Shown: positions 4,819 through 23,568 of the stretch, one piece after another | Numbering within the stretch: the first letter of the stretch is position 1 | Layout: each line of letters starts with the position of its first letter | Source of the DNA: Blastocatellia bacterium | Lineage (GTDB): Bacteria; Acidobacteriota; Blastocatellia; RBC074 | Direction: 5' to 3' | Length of the DNA: 64,000 nucleotides | Assembly: GCA_016789725.1 (NCBI GenBank) | Contig: JAEUQN010000001.1 | Coordinates: 78,588 to 142,587, forward strand | Translations under genes and position numbers: made by a program | The notes under the pieces: model-generated | Database searches by the model: none | Told to the model about the DNA's origin: nothing | Seen by the model: the letters and a program-made list of their open reading frames with translations, nothing else

Positions 4819-5913
4819 ATGGGTATCTGGGTCGAAATCTTAAAACTTGGTGGCGCGGGCGAATATACGATAGCGCGAAAGATGCTCGCGCTGAACCTGC
4901 CTTTTTCATTACGAGATTTTGCTCCGTCAAGTGCAAGTCAGCGTCAGTATCACGGCGTGCTCCCGCGTGCCGTCAGGCGGTTTGCCATGACCCTTCCTAC
5001 CAACGAAAAAGGGTTGCTCCAGAGCTGCGAATCAGATTTTATTGATACTCTCCTGACAGATGTCTGTGAAGAAGTTGAACGGACATTATTACTGGTGGAG
5101 CTATGCCATCGGGAACCACAAGTGACGATAGAGCAGTTGCAACAGCTTTTCCCCTGGTCGCAAGGTCTCAAGCGAAGCGAGGGTTGGAAAAGAGCACGGC
5201 TGCTGGGGTATCTCCGCTCCTTTCAGGCTGTAGGAGTACATCTTCCTCCTGATGTTTGTCACACGGTTGCAGCCGCCGCTGAGCAGGAAGTCCCGGTCTT
5301 TTTATTTGATGAAATTGCTTATGCCGTGTCTGGTAGGCGAATGGAGCAAGGCTGGAAGGATTTCAAAGAAGAGATGGAGTGGAGTGATAGATTTGTCGGA
5401 ATCATCACCGGCGAAGAGGATATGTCAAGCGCCGCTGAGTGCTTGGATTATAGTTCCATTGTCTCCGCGCGATGGCTGGTCAATCCGATTGATGAAGACG
5501 CCGAGCATAAGGTCGAGTGGCTCCTCTTAGGAAGGGAGGTAAGCCCTGATTTGATGGCGCTCCTGGATTCTTTGCACGCGAACAGCCCAACCGATGGCTA
5601 TAGGCCGATTGCTTGGCATAATGTTTTTTGGAATCTCTCTTCCAACTATGAATCTCTGCCCCTCGCGCTGGAACTGCGAAGCCCTTTTCAAGAAACCGAT
5701 CAGGAATTGGCAGATCATATTGTCTCTCATTACACCGAAGTGAAGAGTACCTCGCGCCCTGTCATTTCACGGCGGAGAAAAAAGCTGTATGACATTTGTG
5801 CGGAGCGCATCATCCGCCGTCTGCGAGAATATTTCGCGCCGACGGAAAAAAATGTGATTGAGGTGAACAAAACGAAATCGGAATCACACTTACCCTTGAG
5901 TGAGGAACAATGA
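4819..5913 (+). CDS. hypothetical protein, first gene of the defense-like operon (364 aa)
   Basis: Stop overlaps the start of the 2104-aa helicase gene (ATGA). I recognise no domain. It is preceded by a 535-bp AT-richer intergenic region. Confidence 0.5.
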   Translation: MGIWVEILKLGGAGEYTIARKMLALNLPFSLRDFAPSSASQRQYHGVLPRAVRRFAMTLPTNEKGLLQSCESDFIDTLLTDVCEEVERTLLLVELCHREPQVTIEQLQQLFPWSQGLKRSEGWKRARLLGYLRSFQAVGVHLPPDVCHTVAAAAEQEVPVFLFDEIAYAVSGRRMEQGWKDFKEEMEWSDRFVGIITGEEDMSSAAECLDYSSIVSARWLVNPIDEDAEHKVEWLLLGREVSPDLMALLDSLHANSPTDGYRPIAWHNVFWNLSSNYESLPLALELRSPFQETDQELADHIVSHYTEVKSTSRPVISRRRKKLYDICAERIIRRLREYFAPTEKNVIEVNKTKSESHLPLSEEQ

Positions 5914-8900
5914 GCGGAACAACAACCATCTCGATCTCATCGGCGCTGCTACAAAAGGCGGCGCAATATGCGAGGCTATGTTCTGCTGCGGCCACGCGCG
6001 AACGTGTGTTGGTTTCTCATACGGTAATGCTCGCTGTGCAGGAATATCTGGAAAAGGTGCTAGGCGTAGCAGCGGAGCAGGGGCGTTCGCCCCAACTAAA
6101 ATTTGTCGAATTGCTTGATCTGGCAGATTTCCGTTTACAAGGATGGTCGCTTGAGGTACGGGCGATAACGTCGGTGGTCGAGCCCGCCCTTTATGTTCCT
6201 ACTATGCCCATGCTTGTCGGGGCGTTGGCAGATCATTACTTGGCGGCACAAGTGAATCGCTCGCTGACAGAGATAGAGGTCTTTGGCTTTGCCTGTCGAG
6301 AGGATTTGTCTGAAGCTGAATTGAGCGCGAATGGTCTCTTCGCCATCTTGCCAAGTGACTTACTGAGACCATTTGTCGAGTTGCCTTCGCTTCTCAGTAA
6401 ACCCTCTCGCAAAGACCCTGCGCCAGGAAGCGCATTTGAGGAATGGCAGGTACGAGGGGAGCGATTGTTATTGAACGTGAGTGAATGGCTCACAAACGAA
6501 GCTGTCTTTAGCCCAGAACAAATTGGGCACTTAGCCGCAGGACTGCGGGATGAGGTGCTGCGCGTTTACGGCGAACATCTGCCCGCTACTGGGGTAGAGC
6601 CATTACTAGAGCAACTCTTTCGTCGCTTTGGCATGCGACGCCCTGTACCGGCACCACCGCAGAGTGATTTGTTGTTTGCTCCTAGTGCCGAGGAGCAAAC
6701 AGAATTTGCGCGCTGGGAAAACCGGGAAAGCTATTTTCAGGACAACCTATATCCGGCGGAACGCGCGTCGCTTTACCGCTACTTACTGGCGGATGAAGCC
6801 GCCTTGCAGGAACATCGGCAAATGAGAAAGACGCTGGATCGGGCGACGAAAGGGAAACACCTGGCGTCACCACAGCGACGAAAACGGATGGCCCGACAGC
6901 AACAAAGTCGTTCCGTTTCTGCCACGCTGGAGACAGAACCTATCGCCCCAGACTTGCTCACAGCACTCACACAGGAAAGGGAATTCATGACAGGATCACC
7001 ATCATACGCACCTCACACGGCATCGAATGATTCGATGAATATCTTTGCATTTCGGGATCGCTTGATCGCTGATTACGCCAGCTATGTACAAAGCTTTATT
7101 CAAATTCGTAATCCCCGCGTTCGTGATTACGTCAACGAGCAACTCAATGCGGGTGTCTTTTACCCGGAGCCGTTGATTCAATTGAATCCCTCTTTTGCTC
7201 TTGGCGATTCACTTGACCAACTCATCACTGATCAGGTGTTGCATCCCGAATGTGCGAACATCTTTCGCAAAGATAAAGAAGATACGATTAGTTCAGGCCG
7301 ACTGCTTAATCTTCACCAGCATCAGACGGAAGCGATCAAAGCTGCACAGAAAGGCCATAATTATGTGCTGACGACCGGAACGGGATCGGGCAAAAGCCTC
7401 TCGTACATCATTCCTATCGTGAATCACGTTTTGCGGAATGGCACGGGGCGCGGCATTCAGGCGATTGTTGTCTATCCGATGAATGCACTGGCAAATAGTC
7501 AATTCGGTGAGTTGGAGAAGTTTTTATGTCGTGGGTATCCAGATGGGCCACCTGTTACTTTTGACAAATACACAGGACAGGAAAATGAGGAGGAACGAAA
7601 GCGCATTACACACAATCCTCCTGATATATTGCTCACAAACTATGTGATGTTGGAGCTGATCCTGACGCGCCCGGCTGAGCGGAAAATCATTGAAGCCGCT
7701 CGCGGGTTGCGATTTCTCGTCCTGGATGAATTACATACCTATCGTGGGCGGCAAGGCGCGGATGTGGCCTTACTCGTGCGGCGTGTGCGTGATCGCTTAC
7801 AAGCGAATGAACTGCAATGCGTCGGTACTTCTGCCACGATTGCCGGTGGTGGCACGTTCGAGGAACAACGAACAGAAGTGGCGCGTGTTGCAACACGGCT
7901 CTTTGGGGCAGCGGTGCGCCCGGAGGCCGTCATCATGGAAACGCTACGGCGCACCACCCCAGACCACGATGAACAGGATGCGAAGTTTGTCGCGGAGTTG
8001 AAGCAGCGTCTGGTTGAGATTCGTAAGGGAGAGCTTTTTGCGCGGGATTATGCCAGCTTTGTGAACGACCCATTGGCCATCTGGATCGAAAGCACATTAG
8101 GGGTCAAATCGAAAGACGGGCGACTCGTCAGATGCCAGCCACAAAGCATTACCGGCGAAGAAGGCGCGGCGAAAAAGCTTAGTGATCTGACTGGTATTGA
8201 GCGAGACCACTGTGAGGCTGCGATTGTGCGGGCTTTATTAGCGGGCTATGAATGTGAAAAGAATCCAGCCACGGGGTTCGCGCCCTTTGCTTTTCGCCTC
8301 CATCAATTCATCAGTCGTGGAGATACCGTCTATGCCACACTGGAAGAAGAAGCGGCACGCTATCTCACCATTTATGGACAACAGTACAGGCCCGGATCGC
8401 GTGAACACGTATTGCTCCCGCTCGTTTTCTGCCGTGAATGCGGGCAGGAGTATTACGGAGTACGACGTATCTACAATAAACAAAATCGGCCTGACCATTT
8501 CGCTCCACGCCAATTGAATGATCAATTAAGCGATCAGGAGAGCGAAGCTGGATTTCTTTACTTCAGCACGGACAGGCCATTTCCGACCGATGAAGAACAG
8601 ATTATCAATGAAAATCGTGTGCCCGATGATTGGGTTGAAGAACGAAAGGGGAAGTGGCGTATTCGGAAAGATCGCCAGGCAGATTTACCACGAACTATCT
8701 TGTTGGGGACAGATGGTGTGGAAGCGCCAGAGGGGAGGCACTTCAGTTATATCGCCGCGCCGTTCCGCTTCTGTCTCTGTTGTGGTGTGGCCTACGGTAT
8801 GCGGCAGCGCGATGATTTTGCGAAGCTTTCCTCGCTGGGTTCGGAAGGCCGGAGCACCGCCACCACGATTACCAGTCTTTCGGCGATTCGCTCCTTGCGT

Positions 8901-11900
8901 CGTTCCTCCTTGCCACAACACGCGCGCAAGCTGTTGAGCTTTACGGACAATCGGCAGGACGCTTCTTTGCAAGCGGGCCACTTCAACGACTTCATTGAAA
9001 CGACACTTTTACGCTCAGCCCTTTATCAGGCGGTGCGCAATGCCGGGGCCAATGGTATCAGCTACGATGAACTGACAGGAAAAGCCTTTGACGCATTGCA
9101 ATTGCCGCGCAAGCTATACGCCAAAAACCCGGAAGAGAAATTTCAGCACATCAAAGATACTGACCGCGCTTTGCGCGAGGTCATCGGCTATCGCCTCTAT
9201 CGTGATTTAGAACGGGGCTGGCGCATTACCATGCCGAATCTGGAGCAGTGCGGGCTTTTGCGTATGGAGTATCAATCATTGGATGAACTTTGTGCGGAAG
9301 AAAGCGAATGGATGAATTGTCATCCGTCGCTGACGACAGCAACGCCAGCAGTACGACAACAGATCGCCAAAGTGTTGTTGGATTTCATGCGCCGCGAATT
9401 GACCATCAACGTGAGTTATCTGGATTCACGCGAGCAGGAAAAGATCAAACAACAAAGCAATCAACGTCTCATCGCTCCATGGGCGATAGATGAAAATGAG
9501 AAACTTGAATACGCCGGAATTCTCTTTGCGCGGTCGCGCAAGCCCGGTGATCCTGCCGAAAATACTTATCTTTCGGCGCGCGGTGGCTTTGGGCAATATC
9601 TGCGGCGCACGACAACCTTTACCGACCTGCACCATCGTCTGGACTTGAACGAGACAGAAACGATCATCGCGGACTTACTGCGGATTTTGGCCACAGCCGG
9701 GCTTGTCACAAAAGTCGTAGAGGAACAGAAAGAGGAAGTCGCGGGGTATCAGCTCATGGCGTCGGCCTTACGTTGGACAGTGAGCGATGGTGCGCAGGCA
9801 TTTCACGACCCCATCCGCATGCCCAATGTGCCAGAGGGCGGTGGTCGAACCAATCCCTATTTTGTGAACTTCTATCGCGACCTAACGACGGATTTGCAGG
9901 GTTTGGAAGCGCGTGAGCATACCGCCCAAGTGCAATATGAGTTGCGCGAGGAACGAGAAGAAAAGTTCAAAACAGCGGAATTGCCCATTCTTTATTGCTC
10001 GCCCACGATGGAGCTTGGCGTGGACATCACCGAACTTAATGTGGTGAATATGCGCAACATGCCGCCCACGCCTGCCAATTATGCGCAACGCAGCGGGCGC
10101 GCTGGGCGCAGCGGCCAACCGGCCTTAGTTTTTACTTACTGTACGACCGGTAGCCCGCACGATCAGTATTTCTTCAAACGCCCCGATTTGATGGTGTCCG
10201 GGCAGGTTTCCCCGCCCCGTCTTGATCTGGCAAATGAAGATTTGGTGCGGGCGCATGTTCATGCGATCTGGTTGGCGGAGACAGGCATTTCGCTGGGAAA
10301 ATCCCTGAAAGAGATTCTTGATCTCTCCGGTGAAGAATTAACGCTAGATTTGTTCGAGAGCATCAAATTGCAGGCGGATGCACCTGTCGTCAGGCAACGC
10401 GCAAGTTTATTGGCAGAGAAAATGATGGCCACGATCAAACCGGATTTAGAGGCGTGCGACTGGTACGGCGAGACCTGGTTGGATGAAGTCTTAACGCAGG
10501 CTACAACCCGGTTTGATCGCACCTGCAACCGCTGGCGTGATTTGTATCGTTCTGCCTTAAAGGAGCGGGAACTCCAAAATGACATCATCATCCATCACGA
10601 GCGTAGCCCGCAAGATAAGGAGTTGGCGAAACGAGTGCGCGGGTTAGCTGAATCCCAACTCAAACTTTTGACCGAAGTAGAGAACGTCGCACAATCAGAT
10701 TTTTACAGCTACCGTTATTTTGCGAGCGAAGGCTTTTTGCCCGGGTACAATTTCCCGCGTTTACCGGTATCGGCCTTTATCCCGGCGCGTCGCAATAAGC
10801 AACGTGACGAATTCGTTTCGCGCCCGCGCTTTCTTGCCATTTCAGAATTTGGCCCGCGCGCTTTGGTTTATCACGAAGGCTCAAAATACGTCATCAATAA
10901 GGTCATTCTTCCGATCAGCGAAGGCGGCGATGTCTTGACGCAGCGCGCCAAGCTCTGCGAAGGCTGTGGCTATCTGCACGAGATTACACAAGGGGAAGGA
11001 CTGGATTTGTGCGAACGCTGTCAGCGCCCATTGAGTGCGCCGTTAACCTCACTCTTCCGGCTCCAAAATGTCTCGACGCGGCGGCGTGACAAAATCAACT
11101 CAGATGAAGAGGAGCGCATTCGACTCGGCTATGAAATTATTACCGGCGTGCGTTTCAGCGAGCATGCCGGCCAGCAAGTTTGCCGCACGGCTGAGGTATG
11201 CGTCGGCGATCAAGTCATTGCCCGTCTTTTCTACGGGCAGGCAGCCACCTTATGGCGGATCAATTTGGGATGGGCGCGCCGCCAAAATAAAAACCTGCAC
11301 GGATTCGTTTTGGATGTGGAGCGAGGCTATTGGAAGAGCGAAAGCGATGCCGCAACGGATGACCAGGAAGACCCCATCTCTCGTCGCACCTCGCGCGTGA
11401 TCCCTTATGTGGAAGACACCCGCAACTGCTTAATGATCGAACCGGTCGCGCCGCTCGCGGAAGAGCAAATGGCATCTTTGCAGGCCGCGCTCAAAAACGC
11501 GATTCAGGTACGGTATCAGCTCGAAGACAATGAACTGGCAGCGGAACCGTTACCCACGGTCTATGATCGGCGGCTTTTGCTGTTCTATGAATCTGCTGAA
11601 GGTGGTGCCGGTGTGTTGCGGAGAATGCTGGAAGACGAACAGGCATTTGCAAAGGTTGCCGCAACAGCTCTCGAATTGTGCCACTACACGATTGACGGAA
11701 TAGATCAGCGTCGCGCCTTACGGGCCAAAGAGGACTGTGAAGCAGCTTGCTACGATTGTCTGATGAGCTATTTCAACCAGCGCGAACATCGTCTACTGGA
11801 TCGGAATTTGATTCGTCGAGAGCTATTGCAATTTGCCAATGCGCTGGTCAAAGAGTCACCGACTTCTGTTCCTCGCGCCACTCATCTCGAACAATTGTTA

Positions 11901-12224
11901 CAACAATGTGATTCAGAACTTGAGCGCCAGTGGCTGCGGTATCTGGACGAAAATGGTCATCGGCTACCAAGCCACGCACAATCCCTGATCGAAGCCGCGC
12001 AAACGCGCCCGGACTTTCTCTATCGTGAGGAACAGGTTGCGATCTACATTGATGGGCCGATCCATGATTTTCCTGAGCGGCAACAGCGCGACCGCACCAA
12101 AGCAGACTGGCTTGAAGATCAAGGCTACACGGTCATTCGGTTTGCCCACAATGAGGAATGGGCGGCGGTTCTGCAAAAATATCCCCATATCTTTGGGAAA
12201 CCGCAAACGCCGCAGGAGAAATGA
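5910..12224 (+). CDS. Giant SF2 (DExH) helicase with Zn-ribbon/DUF1998-like Cys clusters and a C-terminal DUF559 (Vsr-like) endonuclease domain; DruE/DrmA-DrmB-like
   Basis: Helicase motif I (LTTGTGSGKSL), motif II (LDELH), motif III (GTSATIAG) and motif VI (QRSGRAGRSG) are all present. Cys clusters: CRECGQEY, CLCCG, CEGCGY..CERCQ, CEAACYDC. The C-terminal ~45 aa (VAIYIDGPIHDFPERQQRDRTKADWLEDQGYTVIRF) matches the DUF559 pattern. Confidence 0.65.
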   Translation: MSGTTTISISSALLQKAAQYARLCSAAATRERVLVSHTVMLAVQEYLEKVLGVAAEQGRSPQLKFVELLDLADFRLQGWSLEVRAITSVVEPALYVPTMPMLVGALADHYLAAQVNRSLTEIEVFGFACREDLSEAELSANGLFAILPSDLLRPFVELPSLLSKPSRKDPAPGSAFEEWQVRGERLLLNVSEWLTNEAVFSPEQIGHLAAGLRDEVLRVYGEHLPATGVEPLLEQLFRRFGMRRPVPAPPQSDLLFAPSAEEQTEFARWENRESYFQDNLYPAERASLYRYLLADEAALQEHRQMRKTLDRATKGKHLASPQRRKRMARQQQSRSVSATLETEPIAPDLLTALTQEREFMTGSPSYAPHTASNDSMNIFAFRDRLIADYASYVQSFIQIRNPRVRDYVNEQLNAGVFYPEPLIQLNPSFALGDSLDQLITDQVLHPECANIFRKDKEDTISSGRLLNLHQHQTEAIKAAQKGHNYVLTTGTGSGKSLSYIIPIVNHVLRNGTGRGIQAIVVYPMNALANSQFGELEKFLCRGYPDGPPVTFDKYTGQENEEERKRITHNPPDILLTNYVMLELILTRPAERKIIEAARGLRFLVLDELHTYRGRQGADVALLVRRVRDRLQANELQCVGTSATIAGGGTFEEQRTEVARVATRLFGAAVRPEAVIMETLRRTTPDHDEQDAKFVAELKQRLVEIRKGELFARDYASFVNDPLAIWIESTLGVKSKDGRLVRCQPQSITGEEGAAKKLSDLTGIERDHCEAAIVRALLAGYECEKNPATGFAPFAFRLHQFISRGDTVYATLEEEAARYLTIYGQQYRPGSREHVLLPLVFCRECGQEYYGVRRIYNKQNRPDHFAPRQLNDQLSDQESEAGFLYFSTDRPFPTDEEQIINENRVPDDWVEERKGKWRIRKDRQADLPRTILLGTDGVEAPEGRHFSYIAAPFRFCLCCGVAYGMRQRDDFAKLSSLGSEGRSTATTITSLSAIRSLRRSSLPQHARKLLSFTDNRQDASLQAGHFNDFIETTLLRSALYQAVRNAGANGISYDELTGKAFDALQLPRKLYAKNPEEKFQHIKDTDRALREVIGYRLYRDLERGWRITMPNLEQCGLLRMEYQSLDELCAEESEWMNCHPSLTTATPAVRQQIAKVLLDFMRRELTINVSYLDSREQEKIKQQSNQRLIAPWAIDENEKLEYAGILFARSRKPGDPAENTYLSARGGFGQYLRRTTTFTDLHHRLDLNETETIIADLLRILATAGLVTKVVEEQKEEVAGYQLMASALRWTVSDGAQAFHDPIRMPNVPEGGGRTNPYFVNFYRDLTTDLQGLEAREHTAQVQYELREEREEKFKTAELPILYCSPTMELGVDITELNVVNMRNMPPTPANYAQRSGRAGRSGQPALVFTYCTTGSPHDQYFFKRPDLMVSGQVSPPRLDLANEDLVRAHVHAIWLAETGISLGKSLKEILDLSGEELTLDLFESIKLQADAPVVRQRASLLAEKMMATIKPDLEACDWYGETWLDEVLTQATTRFDRTCNRWRDLYRSALKERELQNDIIIHHERSPQDKELAKRVRGLAESQLKLLTEVENVAQSDFYSYRYFASEGFLPGYNFPRLPVSAFIPARRNKQRDEFVSRPRFLAISEFGPRALVYHEGSKYVINKVILPISEGGDVLTQRAKLCEGCGYLHEITQGEGLDLCERCQRPLSAPLTSLFRLQNVSTRRRDKINSDEEERIRLGYEIITGVRFSEHAGQQVCRTAEVCVGDQVIARLFYGQAATLWRINLGWARRQNKNLHGFVLDVERGYWKSESDAATDDQEDPISRRTSRVIPYVEDTRNCLMIEPVAPLAEEQMASLQAALKNAIQVRYQLEDNELAAEPLPTVYDRRLLLFYESAEGGAGVLRRMLEDEQAFAKVAATALELCHYTIDGIDQRRALRAKEDCEAACYDCLMSYFNQREHRLLDRNLIRRELLQFANALVKESPTSVPRATHLEQLLQQCDSELERQWLRYLDENGHRLPSHAQSLIEAAQTRPDFLYREEQVAIYIDGPIHDFPERQQRDRTKADWLEDQGYTVIRFAHNEEWAAVLQKYPHIFGKPQTPQEK

Positions 12225-12225
12225 C

Positions 12226-15048
12226 ATGTCCTTTGCTATTGGATCACTCGTCAAAGCGCGAGGTAGAGAATGGGTTGTGCTGCCTGGCTCAGAAACAGAA
12301 TTATTGATGGTGCGCCCACTGGGCGGCACGGAAGACGAAGTCACGGGCTTACTTCTCCCGCTCGAAAAGGTCGAGTCCGCCCAATTCGCGCTGCCCAATC
12401 CGGCGCAGCTTGGCGATTACCGTTCGTGCCGATTACTGCGTGATGCCGTCCGGCTCAGCTTTCGTTCCAGCGCCGGGCCGTTCCGTTCCTTTGCGCGGTT
12501 GGCGGTCGAGCCACGTCCCTATCAATTGGTGCCGCTGATGCTGGCCCTCAAATTGGAACCCGTGCGAATGCTCATCGCGGATGACGTAGGCATCGGCAAA
12601 ACAATTGAAGCGAGTTTGATTGCGCGCGAATTGCTGGATCGCGGGGAAATCGAACGACTCGCCGTTTTATGTTCTCCGCAGTTGGCCACCCAGTGGCAAG
12701 GTGAATTGCGCGACAAGTTTCATATAGAAGCCGAAGTCGTCCTGCCTGGCACAGCTACGCGACTGGAACGCAATTGCCGCTTGAACGAATCATTATTTGA
12801 ACGCTACCCCTTTGTCATCGTCTCCACAGATTTCATCAAATCAGAGCGACGGCGGGCAGAATTCCAACGTACCTGTCCTGAGTTCGTCATTGTGGATGAA
12901 GCCCACACTTGTGCTTACGGCTGGGAAGGCCGAGGCGGACGACATCAACGATACGAATTACTCAAGGCCATTGCTGCCAATCAAGATCGGCATTTGGTAT
13001 TAGTGACGGCGACGCCGCACAGTGGCAACGAAACGGCCTTTCGCTCGCTTCTGACCTTGCTCAATCCTGAATTTGCCAACTTGCCAGAAGAGTTGATGGG
13101 AGCCGCGAATGAGCCTCATCGTCGCCGTCTTTCCGCACATTTCATTCAACGGAAACGGCGCGACATTCGAGATTATTTAGGAGCCGATACGCGATTTCCT
13201 GATCGTAAGGAAATGGAACTTGGCTATAAGCTGTCCAAAGAGTACAAGCAGCTTTTTGACCGTGTCTTGCATTACGCGCGGGAAGTCGTTAGTGATGAAA
13301 ATAACCAGGATCACCGGCAGCGGGTGCGCTGGTGGTCGGTGCTGGCCCTGCTGCGCTCCCTAGCCTCCAGTCCGGCTGCCGCCGCTGCCACGCTACGCAC
13401 TCGGGCTGCCAGCGCTGACGCAATAAGCTTGGCAGAAGCCGATGCGATAGGTCGCCGCACGGTGCTTGATCTGACCGATGATGAATCCGTCGAAAGCGCC
13501 GACCTGACGCACGGCAGCGATATAGGTGATGAAACAGAGGAAGAAAAGAAAAATCATCGCCGGTTACTCGACATGGCGCGTGAGGCAGATGCTTTGCTTG
13601 GTGCCAAAGACCAGAAACTCCAGCACGTCATGGAGATCGTTCGTGATCTCATCAAAGAAGGATTTCACCCCATTCTCTTTTGCCGTTTTATCCCAACGGC
13701 GGAATACGTGGCGGAGGAGTTGCGCAAAAAACTGCGCGGCGTTGAAGTCGTAGCCGTGACCGGCAAACAGCCATCAGACGAACGCGAGGAGCGTGTTAAT
13801 CAATTGGCCCAGTCGCCCCAGCGCGTCCTCGTTTGCACCGATTGTTTGAGCGAGGGCGTCAATTTGCAGGATCACTTCGATACGGTCATTCATTACGATT
13901 TATCGTGGAATCCCACCCGCCATGAACAACGCGAAGGCCGTGTGGATCGCTATGGACAGGAAAAAGACGAAGTCCGCATGGTGACCTATTATGGTCTCGA
14001 CAATCAGATTGATGGGATTGTCCTCAGCGTGCTGATTAGCAAGCACAAGAAGATTCGCAGTTCGCTCGGTATTTCCGTTCCCGTTCCCGTCAACACCGAT
14101 CAAGTCATCGAAGCGATCTTTGAGGGGTTGTTATTGCGCGGAAAAAAAGGCACGCCCGAAGAACAAATGCTGCTGTTTGAGGATTTCATGAAGCCGAAGC
14201 GGGAAGAACTCTATGGCAAATGGGATGAAGCAGGATTACGCGAAGAAAAACTTTCCCAGACGATGTTTTCCCATCGGCCTATTAAGGTGGAAGAAGTATC
14301 CAGAGAGTTGGAGGCTGTGCGCGCGGCCATTGGTGCTGGTGTGGATGTTGCTACTTTCACAAAGCAAGCGCTAACCGCCTACAAAGCAGCCGTCACAGAA
14401 AACAATCATGAGGTTCGGTTTGATATAGCGGAAAGCCCGCGCGCTTTGAAGGATGTCATTGGTTTGGGCCGTGATCAGTTTACCGCGCGCTTTGAATTGC
14501 CTGTCAAAGACGGTCAGCTTTACCTGAACCGCACCCACCCCATTGTCGAAGAGGTTGCCGCGCATGTGCGCGACACTGCACTTGACCCGCTGAGCGATGG
14601 CATTGCGCATCGTTGCGGCGTCATTCGCACACGCGAGGTCAATCGGCGCACGACCCTGATGCTCTTGCGGCTGCGCTATCACATCATCACCAAACGAGGC
14701 GAAGAACAATTTCCCTTGCTGGCCGAAGATGCGCAGCTTGTCGCCTTCGCGGGCGCACCGGCAAACGCCGAATGGTTGGAGGCTGAGGCCGCAGAACACA
14801 TCCTGGAATTACAACCCGATGCCAATGTGTTGCCCGATCAGGCCACGATGTTTCTGCAAAAAGTGCTGGATGAATTCGCACTGCTGCAACCGCATTTACA
14901 GCAGGTCGCTGAGGCGCGCGGCGCTGCACTCTTGGAAGCTCATCGCCGTGTGCGCACTGCCGCACAGATCAAAGGCGCGAGCTACGAAGTGAAAACCGAA
15001 ATGCCCGATGTGCTGGGCATCTATGTTTACCTGCCTGTTGCGTCATAG
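12226..15048 (+). CDS. SNF2-family helicase (DISARM DrmD-like)
   Basis: SNF2 motifs DDVGIGKT, VIVDEAHT and TATPHSGNE. Helicase-C motifs CTDCLSEGVNLQ and HEQREGRVDRYGQ. The start codon lies 1 nt after the upstream stop, with AGGAG 8 nt upstream. Confidence 0.75.
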   Translation: MSFAIGSLVKARGREWVVLPGSETELLMVRPLGGTEDEVTGLLLPLEKVESAQFALPNPAQLGDYRSCRLLRDAVRLSFRSSAGPFRSFARLAVEPRPYQLVPLMLALKLEPVRMLIADDVGIGKTIEASLIARELLDRGEIERLAVLCSPQLATQWQGELRDKFHIEAEVVLPGTATRLERNCRLNESLFERYPFVIVSTDFIKSERRRAEFQRTCPEFVIVDEAHTCAYGWEGRGGRHQRYELLKAIAANQDRHLVLVTATPHSGNETAFRSLLTLLNPEFANLPEELMGAANEPHRRRLSAHFIQRKRRDIRDYLGADTRFPDRKEMELGYKLSKEYKQLFDRVLHYAREVVSDENNQDHRQRVRWWSVLALLRSLASSPAAAAATLRTRAASADAISLAEADAIGRRTVLDLTDDESVESADLTHGSDIGDETEEEKKNHRRLLDMAREADALLGAKDQKLQHVMEIVRDLIKEGFHPILFCRFIPTAEYVAEELRKKLRGVEVVAVTGKQPSDEREERVNQLAQSPQRVLVCTDCLSEGVNLQDHFDTVIHYDLSWNPTRHEQREGRVDRYGQEKDEVRMVTYYGLDNQIDGIVLSVLISKHKKIRSSLGISVPVPVNTDQVIEAIFEGLLLRGKKGTPEEQMLLFEDFMKPKREELYGKWDEAGLREEKLSQTMFSHRPIKVEEVSRELEAVRAAIGAGVDVATFTKQALTAYKAAVTENNHEVRFDIAESPRALKDVIGLGRDQFTARFELPVKDGQLYLNRTHPIVEEVAAHVRDTALDPLSDGIAHRCGVIRTREVNRRTTLMLLRLRYHIITKRGEEQFPLLAEDAQLVAFAGAPANAEWLEAEAAEHILELQPDANVLPDQATMFLQKVLDEFALLQPHLQQVAEARGAALLEAHRRVRTAAQIKGASYEVKTEMPDVLGIYVYLPVAS

Positions 15049-15125
15049 GCGATAGATTTTGCCGAAAACAAAGTCTCGGTACTTGTTGATAACTACCGAG
15101 ACTTTGCTAAAAGCGAGTTGAGGAT

Positions 15126-15404
15126 ATGAACAAGCGTACAGCCTTTGACATCGTGGATTGCCTGGGGGAGGAATTGGATTTGATTGCCGATGCCGCCACA
15201 ACCAAATGGAAAGCCTATTTCGCGCGCTGGGCCTACGAGGTTTTGCAGCAATCGCCGAAGAATTACCTGTACCAGAAAGACGGGCAGGAATATGTGAAGG
15301 TGTTCGATAATCACCACATCCCATTCATTGTTCACATGCGCATTGCCGCCATTGGTGATGACCTCGCGGACGCCTGCGGTTGTCGCCGCGAAATTGACGA
15401 ATAA
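15126..15404 (+). CDS. small hypothetical protein (92 aa)
   Basis: GAGG Shine-Dalgarno 6 nt upstream of the ATG. The stop is 6 nt before the MTase start. I recognise no motifs. Confidence 0.4.
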   Translation: MNKRTAFDIVDCLGEELDLIADAATTKWKAYFARWAYEVLQQSPKNYLYQKDGQEYVKVFDNHHIPFIVHMRIAAIGDDLADACGCRREIDE

Positions 15405-15410
15405 GAATTT

Positions 15411-18400
15411 ATGCAACTTCGACGTCGTAATCTCTTCACCACCATTCGCACCGAGGGTGCAATCCTGCCTGCGGATTTGTTGCAGCGGATCAATGACCGC
15501 GATGCGCAAATCAAAGGGCTGACGCCGGAAGACTATCATTTGGCCGGAAGCCTGAAAGTCAACGAAGCGATCAATCAATCCTATAACCGGATGCTCAGCG
15601 CGTGGGCTTCGTTTCAGACGGCACTGCAAAATCTGACACCCACCGATGCGGGGACGACGGTAACGCGCGAAAAATGGTTGCTGCCGTTGTTTCAGGAACT
15701 CAGTTATGGTCGTTTGCCAACGGCCAAAGCCATCGAAGTCGAAGGCAAGCCGTATCCCATTTCGCACACGTGGCAAAACACGCCGATTCATTTGGTCAGC
15801 GCCAAAGTTGATCTGAATACTCGTACTGCCGGAGTCGCAGGCGCGGCCCGCGTTTCGCCGCACGGATTGGTGCAAGAATTACTCAACAGTTCAGACGCGC
15901 ATTTGTGGGGCTTCGTCTCCAATGGATTGCAACTGCGGATGCTGCGCGACAATGTGAGTTTGACGCGGCAGGCGTATGTCGAATTCGATCTCGAAGCGAT
16001 GATGAACGGCGAACTCTACGCCGATTTTGCGCTGCTCTGGTTGCTGTGTCACGAATCGCGTGTGAATGCCGAAGAGCCGCAGGCCAAACCATCTGATTGC
16101 TGGTTGGAAAAATGGTCGAAGACGGCGCAGGAACAAGGCACACGGGCGCTCGATGCCTTACGCATTGGCGTCGAAGACGCCATCAAAGCGTTGGGGCGCG
16201 GCTTTATTTCGCATCCGGCAAATCAGGGCTTGCTCAGCCAATTGCGCGGCGGCACGCTCGACAAACAGGATTACTATCGGCAACTGCTGCGGCTGGTCTA
16301 TCGGCTGCTGTTTTTGTTTGTAGCCGAAGACCGCGACTTGTTGTTTGCGCCGTCTGCTGATGAAACGATGCGCGGGCGGTACACGCGCTTCTATTCGGTG
16401 TCTCGTTTGCGCAAGCTGGCAGAACGGCGCATCGGTACACGCCACAGCGATTTGTATCACGGCTTGCGGTTGGTGATGCAAAAGCTGGGGAATGGCGGAT
16501 GCAACGAACTCGGCTTGCCTGCGCTCGGCAGCTTTTTGTTCTCGAATGACGCCATTGCTGCGCTGAACAATTGCGAAATTGCGAATCACGATTTGCTGGA
16601 AGCGATTCGCGCGCTGGCCTTCATTCGTGATGAACACGGCTTGCGCACGGTGGATTATAAAAACCTCCGCTCCGAAGAACTCGGCAGCGTCTATGAAGCA
16701 CTGCTTGAACTGCACCCGATTATCAATGCTGAGGCGCGCCATTTCGATCTGGATTCCGCCAGCGGCAACGAACGCAAGACGACGGGCAGCTATTACACGC
16801 CGGACAGTCTGGTGCAATGCCTGTTGGATTCCGCGCTTGATCCGGTCGTTGCGGAAGCAATGAAGCAACCGGATGCAGAGGCCGCACTGCTACGATTTAA
16901 AGTCGTAGACCCTGCCTGCGGTTCTGGTCACTTTCTGATTGCAGCCGCGCATCGGCTCTCGAAGCATTTGGCATCCGTTCGCACAGGCGATGGTGAGCCT
17001 GCGCCGGAAGCGATTCGCACGGCATTGCGTGACGTGATCGGGCATTGCATTTATGGCGTAGACATCAATCCGATGGCGGTCGAATTGTGCAAGGTATCGC
17101 TCTGGATGGAGGCGCTGGAACCCGGCAAGCCGCTCACCTTTTTGGAACATCGCATTCAATGCGGCAATGCGCTGATTGGCACGACTCCGGCGCTGATGAA
17201 ACGCGGGATTCCTGACGAAGCATTCAAGCCCATTGAAGGCGATGACAAAGCGACCTGCGCCGAATACAAACGCTACAACAAAAAGTATCGTGAAAGCGGG
17301 CAGCGCAATATCTTTGAATCTGAAATCAAGCTCGGCAATCTGGCCGTGAGCCTGCTGGCATTGGAAGAGATTGACGACAGTACGATTGCAGGCGTGCGCG
17401 AAAAGCAGCGGCGTTGGGAGCAGCTTGTTCGCTCTAATGATTATCTGTATGGCGGGCTGCTGGCGGATGCGTGGTGCGCGGCGTTTGTGTGGAAGAAAAT
17501 CGAAGACCGCAATCATCCTTACCCAATCACAGAAGAACTCTTCCGCAAAATCGAACAAAGCCCCTGGCACGTTGCTCGCAGTCATCACGAAACGGAAATC
17601 CGTCGGCTGGCGAAGCAGTATCAATTCTTCCATTGGCATCTGGCGTTCCCCGATGTGTTCCGCGTGCCAGTCAATGATGAAGAGCCAGAGAATGAGTTGG
17701 CAGGATGGAATGGCGGGTTTGATGTTGTACTAGGCAATCCGCCGTGGGAGCGTATTAAGCTACAAGAAAAAGAATGGTTTGCCGAACGCAATCCTGAAAT
17801 CGCTAATGCACCAAATTCGGCGGCTCGGCGGCAAAAGATCAAAGAGCTACGCGAAGCAGATAGTTCACTTTATGATGCCTTTCTGGAGGATTGTCGAAAG
17901 GCCGAAGGAGAAGGGCATTTCGTGCGAAGTAGTGATCGTTATCCGCTTTGTGGGCGGGGCGACATTAATACATATGCAATTTTTGCTGAGACGAATCGAA
18001 TGATCGTCAGTAATTGGGGGCGTGTTGGTTGTATAGTACCATCTGGTATAGCAACCGATGACACAACTAAGTTCTTTTTCCAAAATTTGATGGAGCTACA
18101 GCTTCTAATCAGCTTATTCGATTTCGAGAATCGTGATGGAATCTTTCCTGGTGTACACCGAAGTTACAAATTTTGCTTACTCACGCTTACTGGCAAAGAC
18201 AAACCTGCAAAGTTAGGCACAAAGTTTGTGTTCTTTGCGTATTCGATACATGACTTAAACGAAACATCGCGCCAATTTACTTTATCTGCTACTGAAATTG
18301 CGTTGCTCAATCCCAACAGCCACACTTGTCCAATCTTCCGATCCATTAGTGATGCCGAGTTGACTAAATCAATTTATCAACGCGCCCCTATTCTCCTAAG

Positions 18401-19463
18401 AGAATCGCAAACTGAGCTTGGCAATCCTTGGGCTATCGAAATTGGGCGCATGTTCCATACTTCTGATGATTCGCCATTGTTCTGTGCAGAGGGTAGTAGT
18501 AAAATGATGCGTTTATACGAAGCTAAGTGTTACTGGCAATTTGATCATCGCTACGCAACCTTTTCAGAAAATGATTACCAAGAAGTTTGCGAAACTCAGA
18601 AGCAAGACACGCAATTCCAGATTAATGTCCGTTACTATATTGAGTTTGTAAAAATACCCCAGAAGTTTCGCCAGCGGCTATCAAAATGGCATCTTTCGTT
18701 CAGAAAGATAACAAGGTCTACTGACGCAAGAACGCTCATCGCCAGTATTACACCTTTATCTGGTCTGCTTGATTCTGGCAACAACATTTATATTAAGTCG
18801 GCTTCTCATGCCGCTTGTTTGCTAGCATCTCTGAACTCTTTCGTTGTTGATTATGTTTCACGTCAAAAAATTGGTGGCCCAAATATGACTGTTGGTGTCA
18901 TTTCACAAGTTCCGAGTCTGAGTCCTGCCACTTATAATCAGGACTTCTCATTGATAAATGAAACACAAACATTACGCAGGTGGATATTGTCGCGTGTATT
19001 GGAGCTTACTTACACTGCCTACGACCTGCAAGGCTTTGCCGAAGATTGCGGCTATACAGGCGAGCCGTTCCGGTGGGACGAAGCGCGCCGCTTCCTGCTC
19101 CGCGCAGAATTAGACGCTGCCTACTTTCACCTCTACGGTATTGCGCGTGCCGACGTAGACTACATCCTCGACACCTTCCCCATCGTCAAACGCAAGGACG
19201 AAGCGCAGCACGGCGAATACCGTACGAAGCGCGTGATTCTGGAAATCTACGACGCGATGCAACAGGCCATCACCACCGGACAACCGTACCAAACCTTGCT
19301 TGATCCGCCGCCTGCGAATGGCTGGACACCAGCGGAAAGCAGGGATGAGGGCGGAGGGATGAGGGATGAAGAACAGACAGTGACAGCGCCCCAGGCCGAA
19401 GCCTTTCAATTGGAGATGCAGGACGCACGGCCACAGCCGACATTGTTCGATATTGTCGAGTGA
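15411..19463 (+). CDS. N6-adenine DNA methyltransferase, gamma class (PglX / DrmMI / type IIG-like), 1350 aa
   Basis: Motif I VVDPACGSGHFLIAA and motif IV VVLGNPPWE. There is a long N-terminal region. The C-terminal third is AT-rich, consistent with a target-recognition domain. Confidence 0.75.
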   Translation: MQLRRRNLFTTIRTEGAILPADLLQRINDRDAQIKGLTPEDYHLAGSLKVNEAINQSYNRMLSAWASFQTALQNLTPTDAGTTVTREKWLLPLFQELSYGRLPTAKAIEVEGKPYPISHTWQNTPIHLVSAKVDLNTRTAGVAGAARVSPHGLVQELLNSSDAHLWGFVSNGLQLRMLRDNVSLTRQAYVEFDLEAMMNGELYADFALLWLLCHESRVNAEEPQAKPSDCWLEKWSKTAQEQGTRALDALRIGVEDAIKALGRGFISHPANQGLLSQLRGGTLDKQDYYRQLLRLVYRLLFLFVAEDRDLLFAPSADETMRGRYTRFYSVSRLRKLAERRIGTRHSDLYHGLRLVMQKLGNGGCNELGLPALGSFLFSNDAIAALNNCEIANHDLLEAIRALAFIRDEHGLRTVDYKNLRSEELGSVYEALLELHPIINAEARHFDLDSASGNERKTTGSYYTPDSLVQCLLDSALDPVVAEAMKQPDAEAALLRFKVVDPACGSGHFLIAAAHRLSKHLASVRTGDGEPAPEAIRTALRDVIGHCIYGVDINPMAVELCKVSLWMEALEPGKPLTFLEHRIQCGNALIGTTPALMKRGIPDEAFKPIEGDDKATCAEYKRYNKKYRESGQRNIFESEIKLGNLAVSLLALEEIDDSTIAGVREKQRRWEQLVRSNDYLYGGLLADAWCAAFVWKKIEDRNHPYPITEELFRKIEQSPWHVARSHHETEIRRLAKQYQFFHWHLAFPDVFRVPVNDEEPENELAGWNGGFDVVLGNPPWERIKLQEKEWFAERNPEIANAPNSAARRQKIKELREADSSLYDAFLEDCRKAEGEGHFVRSSDRYPLCGRGDINTYAIFAETNRMIVSNWGRVGCIVPSGIATDDTTKFFFQNLMELQLLISLFDFENRDGIFPGVHRSYKFCLLTLTGKDKPAKLGTKFVFFAYSIHDLNETSRQFTLSATEIALLNPNSHTCPIFRSISDAELTKSIYQRAPILLRESQTELGNPWAIEIGRMFHTSDDSPLFCAEGSSKMMRLYEAKCYWQFDHRYATFSENDYQEVCETQKQDTQFQINVRYYIEFVKIPQKFRQRLSKWHLSFRKITRSTDARTLIASITPLSGLLDSGNNIYIKSASHAACLLASLNSFVVDYVSRQKIGGPNMTVGVISQVPSLSPATYNQDFSLINETQTLRRWILSRVLELTYTAYDLQGFAEDCGYTGEPFRWDEARRFLLRAELDAAYFHLYGIARADVDYILDTFPIVKRKDEAQHGEYRTKRVILEIYDAMQQAITTGQPYQTLLDPPPANGWTPAESRDEGGGMRDEEQTVTAPQAEAFQLEMQDARPQPTLFDIVE

Positions 19464-19483
19464 ACCGAAATGAGTTTTCCAGA

Positions 19484-23263: not shown

Positions 23264-23568
23264 GCCGCGTTCTCCTGAAAACAGTTCGCTCCGATCAAGG
23301 CTGCCAATGCAAAATGACCTGACGAAACAGAGTTCTTGCTGCTTCTTCAGGTCATCTTCGCTTTATGCAACTTCTATGCGAGACGTAGGTAACTTCAAGA
23401 AATGGGCATACGGAAGGAAGGTGATGCTCTAAGGTGTGCGCTGCCATCACTTCCTCACCCCAATGCTCGGTCAGCAATCCGTTGTTGAATTTTCCCCGGT
23501 AGGTTGTGGCAAAGATGGTTCGCGCCTGCTTCGTGTAGGCCGCACGCCAGGACTGATAGCTTCTCGCT

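What the first reader, a model, noticed from the sequence alone, without database searches (positions are those of the whole stretch)
17930..19000. AT-rich cassette inside the methyltransferase gene: putative swapped target-recognition domain
Most of the 4-kb MTase gene is GC-rich like its surroundings. One ~1.1-kb stretch (aa ~840-1200) is different. It begins just downstream of the NPPW catalytic motif at nt ~17737. By eye it is clearly AT-richer, with runs such as ttatccgctttgtgggcggggcgacattaatacatatgcaatttttgctgag and aatttgatggagctacagcttctaatcagcttattcgatttcgag. In type IIG, PglX and DrmMI-like enzymes the TRD follows the catalytic domain. A compositionally foreign block at exactly that position suggests specificity-domain exchange by recombination.
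Basis: seen in the sequence. Interest (0 to 1): 0.6.

Follow-up and report, generated by a model that had tools for sequence, protein, structure and literature searches.

The report
Swapped DNA-recognition cassette in a defence methyltransferase
A 1.2-kb AT-rich stretch inside a large anti-phage DNA methyltransferase gene is a recombination-exchanged cassette that carries the enzyme's DNA-recognition domain; this is a clean example of a well-known way for such enzymes to change specificity, not a new mechanism.

Summary
Window 17964-19016 has GC 0.41 against 0.55 for the rest of the 1350-aa methyltransferase gene (15411-19463). GC3 is 0.385 against 0.62-0.71. It is the lowest-GC kilobase of the 64-kb window.

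Five relatives on the same defence-island backbone are about 88-98% identical in DNA outside the block. Inside about 17815-19010 they fall to 45-65%. All six alleles carry mutually unrelated cassettes. Two relatives that are 97.5-99.7% identical outside differ by a 1-kb replaced segment.

Two corrections are needed:
- Only the second half of the block (aa ~1001-1200) is the target-recognition domain (TRD). Its model matches M.TaqI, M.BseCI and CamA, whose specificity domains are C-terminal, and type I S subunits. The first half (aa ~805-1000) is the conserved C-terminal half of the catalytic domain.
- AT-richness of this segment is family-wide: 65 of 67 homologues from many phyla show it. Composition alone is therefore weak evidence of foreign origin, although this allele lies in the most extreme 5%.

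No silent cassettes or inversion repeats were found, so the route is allelic replacement, not a shufflon. TRD exchange is well known for type I, type III and type IIG enzymes, and DISARM-like MTases are known to vary by inversion. The 5' junction lacks an independent contig.

The parts
15411..19463 (+). Gene for a 1350-aa gamma-class N6-adenine DNA methyltransferase (Eco57I/MmeI-like, DrmMI-like). It is identical to a protein annotated 'N-6 DNA methylase [Blastocatellia bacterium]'.
   Evidence: ORF. Pfam Eco57I scores 75 bits against a cut-off of 25.3; N6_Mtase and MmeI_Mtase also hit. The best PADLOC hit is DrmMI, E 3.5e-70. P0001 is 100% identical.
16908..16934 (+). Motif I (SAM binding), DPACGSGHF, aa 500-508.
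   Evidence: In the model the strand sits at model residues 58-60, which are aa 498-500.
17736..17747 (+). Motif IV (catalytic), NPPW, aa 776-779. It lies in the conserved frame, about 75 nt upstream of the 5' junction.
   Evidence: Nearly invariant in the family.
17815..17822 (+). 5' recombination junction against relatives L081, L083, L085 and L001. DNA identity falls from about 90% to 55-65% here. L084 breaks earlier, near 17650-17660, and the pair L081/L083 breaks later, at about aa 862.
17823..18410 (+). Cassette part A (aa 805-1000): the C-terminal half of the catalytic domain. It is conserved in the family (median 60% identity) but was exchanged together with the TRD. GC 0.43, GC3 0.39.
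   Evidence: Near-invariant residues. End of Pfam Eco57I, profile 101-171, on aa 843-912. TIGR02987 on aa 763-957. Alternating helix-strand pattern in the model. Identity to the sister alleles is 0.36-0.59 against 0.92-0.95 in the frame.
18411..19010 (+). Cassette part B (aa 1001-1200): the target-recognition domain, hypervariable in the family (median 36% identity). GC 0.41, GC3 0.38.
   Evidence: The AF2 model of aa 975-1215 has pLDDT 93. Foldseek matches M.BseCI, M.TaqI, CamA, type I HsdS subunits (5ybb_D, 2y7c_A, 3okg, 1yf2), the PacII and BsaXI S subunits and BrxX. Identity to the sister alleles is 0.24-0.33.
18990..19030 (+). 3' recombination junction, shared by all compared alleles, inside the conserved LELTYTAYDL coding stretch (18999-19028). 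The compositional change-point is at 19016.
19011..19310 (+). Conserved C-terminal helical module (aa 1201-1300): the 3' frame. It is 91-96% identical in DNA to the sister alleles. GC 0.58.
19311..19463 (+). Disordered C-terminal tail (aa 1301-1350), a second and smaller variable segment.
   Evidence: pLDDT below 50. DNA identity to the sister alleles is 46-62%, against 83-89% to L086.
5910..12224 (+). Neighbour gene: a 2104-aa DUF1822 + DEAD/DEAH helicase + MZB (DUF1998) + DUF559 protein, DruE-like, resembling a DrmA/DrmB fusion.
12025..15048 (+). Neighbour gene: an SNF2 helicase (DrmD/DpdE-like). The true start is probably near 12226, as in the relatives.
   Evidence: Relatives encode 923-940 aa, starting right after the helicase stop in L081, L084 and L085.

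Best explanation
The AT-rich block is an exchanged allelic cassette of about 1.2 kb (about 17815-19010, aa ~805-1200) inside a DrmMI-like gamma-class N6-adenine methyltransferase. The gene belongs to a DISARM-like defence island on a conjugative element. The cassette carries the last part of the catalytic domain plus the target-recognition domain.

It was most likely installed by homologous recombination. The crossovers lie in the conserved coding sequence on either side: just after motif IV (NPPW) on the left, and in the LELTYTAxDL stretch that opens the conserved C-terminal helical module on the right. The incoming segment came from a diverged member of the same family, probably one from a lower-GC background.

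The consequence, which is inferred and not shown, is a change in the DNA motif that the enzyme methylates, and so in what the defence system treats as self.

Shown: the compositional break, the mosaic identity, the allelic series of unrelated cassettes on one backbone, and the TRD fold.

Inferred: that recombination was the mechanism, the direction and donor of the exchange, and the change in specificity.
For: (1) Mosaic protein identity. P0002-P0005 are 90-100% identical over aa 1-800 and 1201-1300 but 18-72% over aa 801-1200.

(2) Mosaic DNA identity. Identity to L081, L083, L084 and L085 is about 88-98% outside the block and 33-76% (mostly 45-65%) in 17811-19010. It returns abruptly to 91-96% at 19011.

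(3) An allelic series on one backbone. The window and the four relatives aligned at protein level have frames 91-95% identical, but cassettes only 31-62% (part A) and 24-35% (part B) identical in every pairwise comparison, with lengths of 405-519 aa. L001 shows the same DNA break at about 17811 and return at about 19011. L081 and L083 are 97.5% and 99.7% identical on the two sides of a 1,016-nt segment that gives no blastn alignment.

(4) Incongruent similarity. Across 119 homologues, frame identity does not predict block identity (Spearman -0.40 for part A and -0.17 for part B), whereas the 5' and 3' frames correlate at +0.31. The best TRD matches (P0027 0.69, P0017 0.64, L088 0.68) sit in frames that are only 0.50-0.64 identical.

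(5) The same cassette elsewhere. It occurs in an independent sample (L086) at mostly 92-99% DNA identity per 100 nt (one bin 86%), while the adjoining 3' frame is only 81-94% identical.

(6) The 5' junctions differ between allele pairs (aa ~750, ~805, ~862). This fits homologous crossovers rather than a site-specific event.

(7) TRD fold of aa 975-1215. The whole C-terminal 910 aa matches PglX/BrxX, CamA, M.BseCI and M.TaqI. In PglX the TRD likewise follows the MTase domain (PMC11341690).

(8) GC3 drops from 0.62-0.71 to 0.385. The dip relative to flanking DNA is in the most extreme 5% of the family.
Against: - No donor was found. Apart from the fragment L086, the nearest cassette is only about 64-69% identical.
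- The 5' junction of this particular allele is not confirmed by any independent contig. L086 starts 57 nt before the junction with unrelated sequence, and a protein search across the junction found nothing above 69%. The window comes from a metagenome-assembled genome.
- The AT-richness is family-wide, so it does not by itself show foreign origin.
- No methylation data exist, so the change of specificity is an inference.
- DNA conservation among distant family members at the junctions is only moderate: 58-76% on the 5' side (17706-17840) and 41-58% around the 3' junction (18966-19100). The actual donor must therefore have been closer in its frame than the distant homologues sampled.
Confidence: 0.8

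Rival explanations
1. The AT-richness is mainly an intrinsic, family-wide property of this part of the gene, arising from amino-acid composition plus a persistent synonymous AT bias. It is not a signature of a lower-GC donor. The cassette may still have been swapped, but composition says little about that.
For: - In 65 of 67 homologous genes both part A and part B are AT-richer than the frame (GC -0.08 and -0.09; GC3 -0.14 and -0.17).
- Block GC tracks flank GC with slope 0.94-1.00 and an offset of -0.01 to -0.05. There is no regression to a common pool value.
- The sister alleles also dip, to 0.45-0.53 against a frame of 0.55.
- Amino-acid composition alone accounts for about half of the window's dip.
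Against: - The window's offset from flanking DNA (-0.112 and -0.130) is more than twice the family mean (-0.039 and -0.054). Only 3 and 2 of 61 loci are more extreme.
- Part A is as conserved in protein as the frame, yet shares the low GC3. Fast protein evolution therefore does not explain the dip.
Confidence: 0.5
2. The mosaic in this window is an assembly chimera. Two co-occurring strains share the conserved frame, and the assembler joined one strain's frame to another strain's cassette.
For: - The window is from a MAG contig, and the exact protein is seen on one contig only.
- No independent contig spans the 5' junction.
- L086 breaks exactly at that junction, as assembly graphs do at the boundary between conserved and variable sequence.
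Against: - The ORF is intact and in frame, and it folds into a confident continuous model (pLDDT 88).
- The 3' junction, the 3' frame and the tail are reproduced in L086, from a different sample.
- The same mosaic pattern recurs in contigs from five other samples, each with an intact ORF in four of them.
- Even a chimera would require both alleles to exist, so cassette diversity would stand.
Confidence: 0.07
3. The block diverged in place by rapid point mutation under diversifying selection, without recombination.
For: TRDs are commonly under diversifying selection. Part B is the least conserved segment across the family, with median identity 0.365.
Against: - Identity changes as a step at sharp boundaries.
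- L081 and L083 are 99.7% and 97.5% identical in the flanks but have no alignable DNA over 1 kb.
- Cassette lengths differ by up to 114 aa.
- The conserved part A also drops to the family background level.
- Better TRD matches are found in distant frames.
Confidence: 0.04
4. The cassette is switched locally by programmed inversion or a shufflon using silent cassettes, as described for some DrmMI homologues.
For: Programmed inversions that target DrmMI homologues in class 1 DISARM and DISARM-like loci are documented (PMC9881135).
Against: - tblastn of aa 801-1300 against the whole window finds only the gene itself.
- blastn of the gene against the window finds no second copy.
- There are no long inverted repeats in 15000-24000; the longest arm is 34 nt at 71% complementarity.
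- No invertase domain turned up among the ten neighbouring ORFs scanned with Pfam; the rest of the window was not scanned.
- The downstream genes present in relatives are conserved and unrelated to the MTase.
Confidence: 0.02

Closest known systems
Allelic TRD replacement in type III mod and type I hsdS genes, and in the type IIG S gene of Helicobacter pylori (Furuta & Kobayashi; PMC3575425, PMC3467074, PMC3077401, PMC3983042)
   Same: A variable recognition segment is flanked by conserved coding sequence. Near-identical alleles carry unrelated TRDs. The proposed route is recombination at the conserved flanks that encode MTase motifs.
   Different: The enzyme here is a 1350-aa gamma-class DrmMI-like MTase in a DISARM-like island from an Acidobacteriota MAG. 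The exchanged unit includes the C-terminal half of the catalytic domain as well as the TRD. No movement between paralogous loci or between positions within the gene was seen.
Class 1 DISARM DrmMI, and DISARM-like loci with programmed inversions (Milman et al. 2023, PMC9881135; Aparicio-Maldonado et al. 2021, bioRxiv 10.1101/2021.12.28.474362)
   Same: A large DrmMI-like adenine MTase sits next to an SNF2 helicase and a helicase-DUF1998 protein. Some of the loci described likewise fuse the YprA helicase and DUF1998 in one CDS. DrmMI methylates a non-palindromic motif (ACACAG in Serratia). The MTase gene is a known target of variation.
   Different: Variation here is by allelic replacement between genomes, not by local inversion. 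No PLD protein (DrmC) turned up among the neighbours scanned. The helicase carries DUF1822 and DUF559 domains. The NCBIfam DrmD and DrmA models score below their cut-offs.
BREX PglX/BrxX methyltransferase (8C45, 8Q56, 9EWZ; PMC11341690)
   Same: It is the best structural match for aa 441-1350 (Foldseek E 1e-15). The order of domains is the same: MTase domain, then TRD, then a helical C-terminal region. In PglX the TRD sets the specificity for both methylation and defence and can be re-engineered.
   Different: Sequence identity is only 11-12%. The NCBIfam PglX models score far below their cut-offs (56 bits against 400). No BREX partner genes are present.
M.TaqI, M.BseCI and CamA (gamma-class N6-adenine MTases with a C-terminal TRD)
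   Same: The isolated segment aa 975-1215 matches these proteins (TaqI: about 195 aligned columns, rmsd 5.3 A, TM 0.46 normalised to the query). It lacks the catalytic domain, and their specificity domains are C-terminal (established knowledge).
   Different: Those are small stand-alone MTases of 380-580 aa, without the N-terminal 440-aa region, the long helical insertions or the conserved C-terminal module.

Membership tests
Gamma-class N6-adenine DNA methyltransferase, Eco57I/MmeI-like (PF07669, PF20473) | Pfam family score above the gathering threshold | tested here: met
   Eco57I 75 bits (cut-off 25.3), N6_Mtase 39.4 (20.4), MmeI_Mtase 28.4 (27).
Gamma-class N6-adenine DNA methyltransferase, Eco57I/MmeI-like (PF07669, PF20473) | Motif I (SAM binding) lies N-terminal of motif IV (NPPY/W), and the TRD lies C-terminal of the catalytic domain | tested here: met
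   DPACGSGHF at aa 500-508, NPPW at aa 776-779. TRD fold at aa ~1000-1200.
Class 1 DISARM (DrmD, DrmMI, DrmA, DrmB, DrmC) | DrmMI-type adenine methyltransferase | tested here: inconclusive
   The best PADLOC hit is DrmMI, E 3.5e-70, but its best stretch covers only aa 451-780. A type IIG model scores next, at 1.1e-53.
Class 1 DISARM (DrmD, DrmMI, DrmA, DrmB, DrmC) | SNF2 helicase DrmD | tested here: inconclusive
   NCBIfam DISARM_DrmD scores 309 bits, below its cut-off of 610. PADLOC DrmD gives 1.1e-84, but a DpdE model scores far higher, at 1.7e-260.
Class 1 DISARM (DrmD, DrmMI, DrmA, DrmB, DrmC) | Separate DrmA helicase and DrmB (DUF1998) proteins | tested here: not met
   A single 2104-aa protein carries DEAD, Helicase_C and MZB/DUF1998 together with DUF1822 and DUF559. 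The best PADLOC hit is DruE3 (7.5e-109), with DrmA only 8e-15. NCBIfam DrmA scores 20.7 bits against a cut-off of 950.
Class 1 DISARM (DrmD, DrmMI, DrmA, DrmB, DrmC) | PLD-domain protein DrmC | tested here: not met
   No PLD domain turned up in the ten neighbouring ORFs scanned. A DUF559 (Vsr-like) domain sits at the helicase C-terminus instead.
Type IIG / IIL bifunctional restriction-modification enzyme (MmeI, BpuSI, Eco57I) | Endonuclease domain in the same polypeptide as the MTase and TRD | tested here: inconclusive
   The N-terminal 440 aa give no Pfam match (best E 0.25). That region was not modelled. The PADLOC type IIG models hit only the MTase/TRD part.
Allelic TRD exchange by recombination at conserved flanks | Near-identical alleles whose identity collapses only in the segment that contains the TRD, with sharp boundaries | tested here: met
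Allelic TRD exchange by recombination at conserved flanks | The same cassette is found in a more diverged frame (incongruent histories) | tested here: inconclusive
   L086's cassette is mostly 92-99% identical per 100 nt against 81-94% for its 3' frame, but its 5' frame is missing. Weaker cases are P0027, P0017 and L088.
Programmed-inversion (shufflon) specificity switching | Silent partial cassettes in inverted orientation, inverted repeats and a nearby invertase | tested here: not met
   No second copy. No long inverted repeats. No recombinase among the ten neighbouring ORFs scanned with Pfam; the rest of the window was not scanned.

The most novel reading that the evidence does not exclude
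The exchanged unit (the C-terminal half of the catalytic domain plus the TRD) may be a separately evolving module with its own compositional regime across phyla. It sits about 0.05 GC below the host background, while the conserved frame sits about 0.04 above it.

One possible cause is that frequent recombination, or GC-biased conversion, acts on the frames but not on the mutually non-homologous cassettes.

A second reading follows from the fact that unrelated cassettes are tolerated on one backbone. This would imply that the MTase TRD is the only sequence reader for both modification and restriction in this DISARM-like system. That would make the long-unclear specificity logic of DISARM-like systems directly testable using this natural allelic series.
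Probability: 0.2. Interest if true: 0.55.

Novelty: new member of a known kind. Interest (0 to 1): 0.35.

Why it matters
The finding documents specificity-cassette turnover in a little-studied DISARM-like methyltransferase family that is spread across many phyla. It supplies a natural allelic series: at least six unrelated cassettes on a backbone that is about 90% identical or more, with mapped junctions. Such a series could guide TRD-swap engineering and the assignment of motifs to TRDs.

It also carries a caution for composition-based inference. The AT-rich dip is a property of this gene segment in nearly every family member, so a GC dip inside such genes marks the variable module rather than proving a recent foreign import.

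Tried and rejected
- Near-identical DNA in plasmids and E. coli genomes: no match.
- The block as protein against phage records and viral contigs: no match. Against plasmids it found only family members at 45% identity or less.
- Sequence search of the PDB with the protein and with a profile: only a motif-I match to a type I M subunit, which did not help with domain mapping.
- Metagenome scan with the cassette: only two loci, at 43% and 63% identity, and no donor.
- Protein search across the 5' junction: nothing above 69%, so the junction has no independent confirmation.
- Silent cassettes or a shufflon: rejected.
- The MANTIS / Gao_RL system as an identity for the island: rejected, because its components are different (AAA+ MtsA, MtsB, MtsC, MtsD).
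- Regression to a common cassette-pool GC as the cause of the family-wide dip: rejected, because the slope is about 1 and frame GC does not correlate with the size of the dip (r = 0.18, n.s.).
- High DNA conservation at the junctions among distant homologues: only moderate, 58-76% on the 5' side and 41-58% around the 3' junction.

Full report
**Observation**

The gene is the ORF 15411-19463 (+), 1350 aa. It is identical to a protein annotated 'N-6 DNA methylase [Blastocatellia bacterium]' from a 242-kb MAG contig. NPPW is at aa 776-779, nt 17736-17747.

The GC dip is real and large.
- In 300-nt windows GC is 0.39-0.44 between about 17900 and 19000, against 0.52-0.59 on both sides.
- The tile 18001-19000 (GC 0.412) is the lowest of the 64 one-kb tiles; the next lowest is 0.487.
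- A two-change-point fit puts the low-GC segment at 17964-19016 (0.408 against 0.552), with logLR 32.3. The maximum in 20 codon shuffles was 11.5.
- GC3 falls from 0.615 (aa 1-800) and 0.710 (aa 1201-1300) to 0.385.
- Recoding the block's amino acids with the codon usage of the frame and its neighbours would give GC 0.487. The observed value is 0.424, so about half of the dip is amino-acid composition and half is synonymous.

**Context**

The gene lies in a defence island.
- Upstream is a 2104-aa protein (5910-12224) with DUF1822, DEAD/Helicase_C, MZB (DUF1998) and DUF559 domains. Its best PADLOC hit is DruE3.
- Next comes an SNF2 helicase (12025-15048; DpdE/DrmD models).
- The MTase itself hits PADLOC DrmMI best, at E 3.5e-70.
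- A type IV coupling protein (1205-3457) and a MobL relaxase (26416-28662, minus strand) place the island on a conjugative element.
- The island resembles class 1 DISARM but is not a canonical member. The DrmA and DrmB functions are fused, no PLD protein was found, and the NCBIfam DISARM models score below their cut-offs. Similar 'DISARM-like' loci with a fused helicase-DUF1998 CDS are described in PMC9881135.

**Is identity lost only in the block? Yes.**

The closest homologues, P0002-P0005, are 90-100% identical over aa 1-800 and aa 1201-1300. Over aa 801-1200 they are 18-72% identical.

Their contigs were fetched as L081, L083, L084 and L085. These carry the same backbone genes at about 88-98% DNA identity. 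Within the MTase gene, identity falls to 33-76% (mostly 45-65%) across 17811-19010 and returns abruptly to 91-96% at 19011.

Alignments place the junctions as follows.
- The 5' junction is at about 17815-17822 for L081, L083, L085 and L001, and near 17650 for L084.
- The 3' junction is at about 18990-19030 for all of them, inside the conserved LELTYTAYDL coding stretch. This coincides with the compositional change-point at 19016.

The window and its four sister alleles have frames that are 91-95% identical. In every pairwise comparison, however, their cassettes are only 31-62% (aa 805-1000) and 24-35% (aa 1001-1200) identical. Cassette lengths range from 405 to 519 aa. L001 shows the same DNA break and return.

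The cleanest case is the pair L081/L083. They are 97.5% identical over the 12.6 kb to the left and 99.7% over the 3.3 kb to the right. Between those stretches lies a 1,016-nt segment that gives no blastn alignment.

Across 119 homologues, frame identity does not predict block identity (Spearman -0.40 and -0.17), whereas the two frame parts correlate positively. The best matches to the hypervariable half (P0027 0.69, P0017 0.64, L088 0.68) have frames that are only 0.50-0.64 identical.

One independent 3-kb contig, L086, carries the same cassette. Per 100 nt the cassette is mostly 92-99% identical in DNA (one bin 86%), while the adjoining 3' frame is 81-94% identical.

Together these results show cassette replacement by recombination rather than divergence in place. 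The differing 5' junctions (aa ~750, ~805, ~862) argue for homologous crossovers rather than a site-specific mechanism.

**What the block encodes**

An AlphaFold2 model of aa 441-1350 is confident (pLDDT 88.4, pTM 0.86). Its best PDB matches are PglX/BrxX, CamA, M.BseCI and M.TaqI. These are gamma-class adenine MTases whose recognition domain follows the catalytic domain. In PglX, for example, the MTase domain is residues 227-661 and the TRD is 662-849 (PMC11341690).

The block splits into two halves.

- **Part A, aa ~805-1000.** It contains many residues that are nearly invariant in the family: YPLCGRGD, GCIVPSGIATDDT, DFENR, KFCLLTL and NPN..TCPIFRS. It matches the end of the Pfam Eco57I MTase profile and the TIGR02987 MTase model. 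The model shows the alternating helix-strand pattern of the Rossmann-like fold after motif IV. Part A is therefore the C-terminal half of the catalytic domain, not a TRD.
- **Part B, aa ~1001-1200.** This is the hypervariable part, with median identity 0.365. Modelled on its own as aa 975-1215 (pLDDT 93), it matches M.BseCI, M.TaqI and CamA, type I HsdS subunits (5ybb_D, 2y7c_A, 3okg, 1yf2), the PacII and BsaXI S subunits, and BrxX. Because this segment lacks the catalytic domain, the matches to the first three enzymes should fall in their C-terminal specificity domains (established knowledge; Foldseek reports no target coordinates). Part B is the TRD.

After the block come a conserved helical module (aa 1201-1300) and a disordered tail.

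**Composition in the family**

I mapped the homologous segments in 67 other family genes, from hosts whose flanking DNA ranges from 0.41 to 0.68 GC.
- In 65 of 67 genes both halves of the block are AT-richer than the frame. Mean GC differences are -0.078 and -0.094; mean GC3 differences are -0.136 and -0.171.
- Block GC follows flank GC with slope 0.94-1.00 and an offset of -0.01 to -0.05.
- The frame is on average 0.041 GC above the flank, with slope 0.71.

The dip is therefore a general feature of this gene family and not specific to this allele. It also affects the protein-conserved part A, so fast protein evolution is not the reason. The cause is unexplained.

The window's offset from its flanks (-0.112 and -0.130) is nevertheless more than twice the family mean. 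Only 3 and 2 of 61 loci are more extreme. The four sister alleles dip less, to 0.45-0.53. An origin in a lower-GC relative is thus plausible for this cassette but not demonstrated.

**Alternatives**

- **Local switching by inversion.** This is known for some DrmMI homologues (PMC9881135) but is excluded here. The window holds no second copy of the block, no long inverted repeats and no invertase among the scanned neighbours. The extra downstream genes in relatives are conserved and unrelated to the MTase.
- **Chimeric assembly.** This cannot be fully excluded for the 5' junction of this allele. No independent contig spans it, and L086 begins with 57 unrelated nucleotides exactly at the junction. 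Against a chimera, the ORF is intact, the model is continuous, the 3' junction is reproduced in L086, and the same pattern recurs in contigs from other samples.

**Mechanism and meaning**

The most likely history is allelic replacement of a cassette of about 1.2 kb. The crossovers lie in the conserved coding sequence just after motif IV and at the start of the C-terminal module. This is the route proposed for type III mod and type I/IIG specificity genes (PMC3575425).

The expected effect is a new methylated motif and hence a new self mark for the defence system. DrmMI of Serratia methylates the non-palindromic ACACAG, and unmethylated sites increase DISARM's effect on plasmids (bioRxiv 10.1101/2021.12.28.474362). 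The change of specificity is inferred; no methylome is available.

**Verdict**

This is a new, well-resolved example of a known phenomenon, so interest is moderate to low (0.35). The family-wide compositional split and the natural allelic series are the parts most worth following up.

Noticed in passing
Family-wide: loci L002-L088; in the window 17823-19010 against the rest of 15411-19310: In 65 of 67 homologous MTase genes from many phyla, the segment from after motif IV through the TRD is AT-richer than the rest of the gene (GC3 -0.14 to -0.17). It tracks host GC with slope ~1 and an offset of -0.01 to -0.05, while the conserved frame averages 0.041 GC above the flanks. The cause is unknown.
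   Followed up: partly
L086:1-57, corresponding to window 17822: An independent 3-kb contig carries the same cassette. Its homology to the window begins exactly at the 5' junction, and the 57 nt before that match nothing fetched. This could be a truncated copy, a rearrangement or an assembly break.
   Followed up: partly
window 19311-19463: The disordered C-terminal tail (aa 1301-1350, pLDDT below 50) is a second mosaic segment. The window resembles L086 (83-89% DNA identity), L081 equals L083, and L084 resembles L085. Identity between these groups is only 24-63%.
   Followed up: partly
window 15049-15410 and 19464-19483; relatives L081, L083, L084 and L085: The relatives carry an AbiEi/AbiEii pair between the SNF2 and MTase genes. 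They also carry two unannotated genes (438 aa and 462-482 aa) after the MTase, followed in L083-L085 by a DUF4062 gene. All of these are absent from the window, where the MTase stop is followed 20 nt later by the end of a convergent 1259-aa gene. L001 shares the window's upstream arrangement without AbiE.
   Followed up: partly
window 19484-23263 (-): A 1259-aa ORF has no Pfam, PADLOC or NCBIfam match. It is conserved at 92-96% DNA identity next to the island in the relatives.
   Followed up: no
window 5910-12224 (+): A 2104-aa protein joins an N-terminal DUF1822, a DEAD/DEAH helicase, MZB (DUF1998) and a C-terminal DUF559 (Vsr-like endonuclease-type) domain. Its best PADLOC hit is DruE3. It looks like a DrmA/DrmB fusion carrying its own candidate nuclease.
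   Followed up: no
window 12025-12224: The listed SNF2 ORF starts at GTG 12025 and overlaps the helicase gene by 200 nt. In L081, L084 and L085 the SNF2 gene (940 aa) starts directly after the helicase stop, so the real start here is probably near 12226.
   Followed up: no
window 15069-15106: An inverted repeat with 16-nt arms, 94% complementary and separated by a 6-nt loop, lies 21 nt after the SNF2 stop. Homology to the AbiE-carrying relatives ends here, at about 15061-15063. It may be a terminator or the edge of an insertion point.
   Followed up: no
window 1205-3457 (+) and 26416-28662 (-): A type IV coupling protein (T4SS-DNA_transf / TraG-D_C) and a MobL-type relaxase flank the region. 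The defence island therefore sits on a conjugative or mobilisable element.
   Followed up: no
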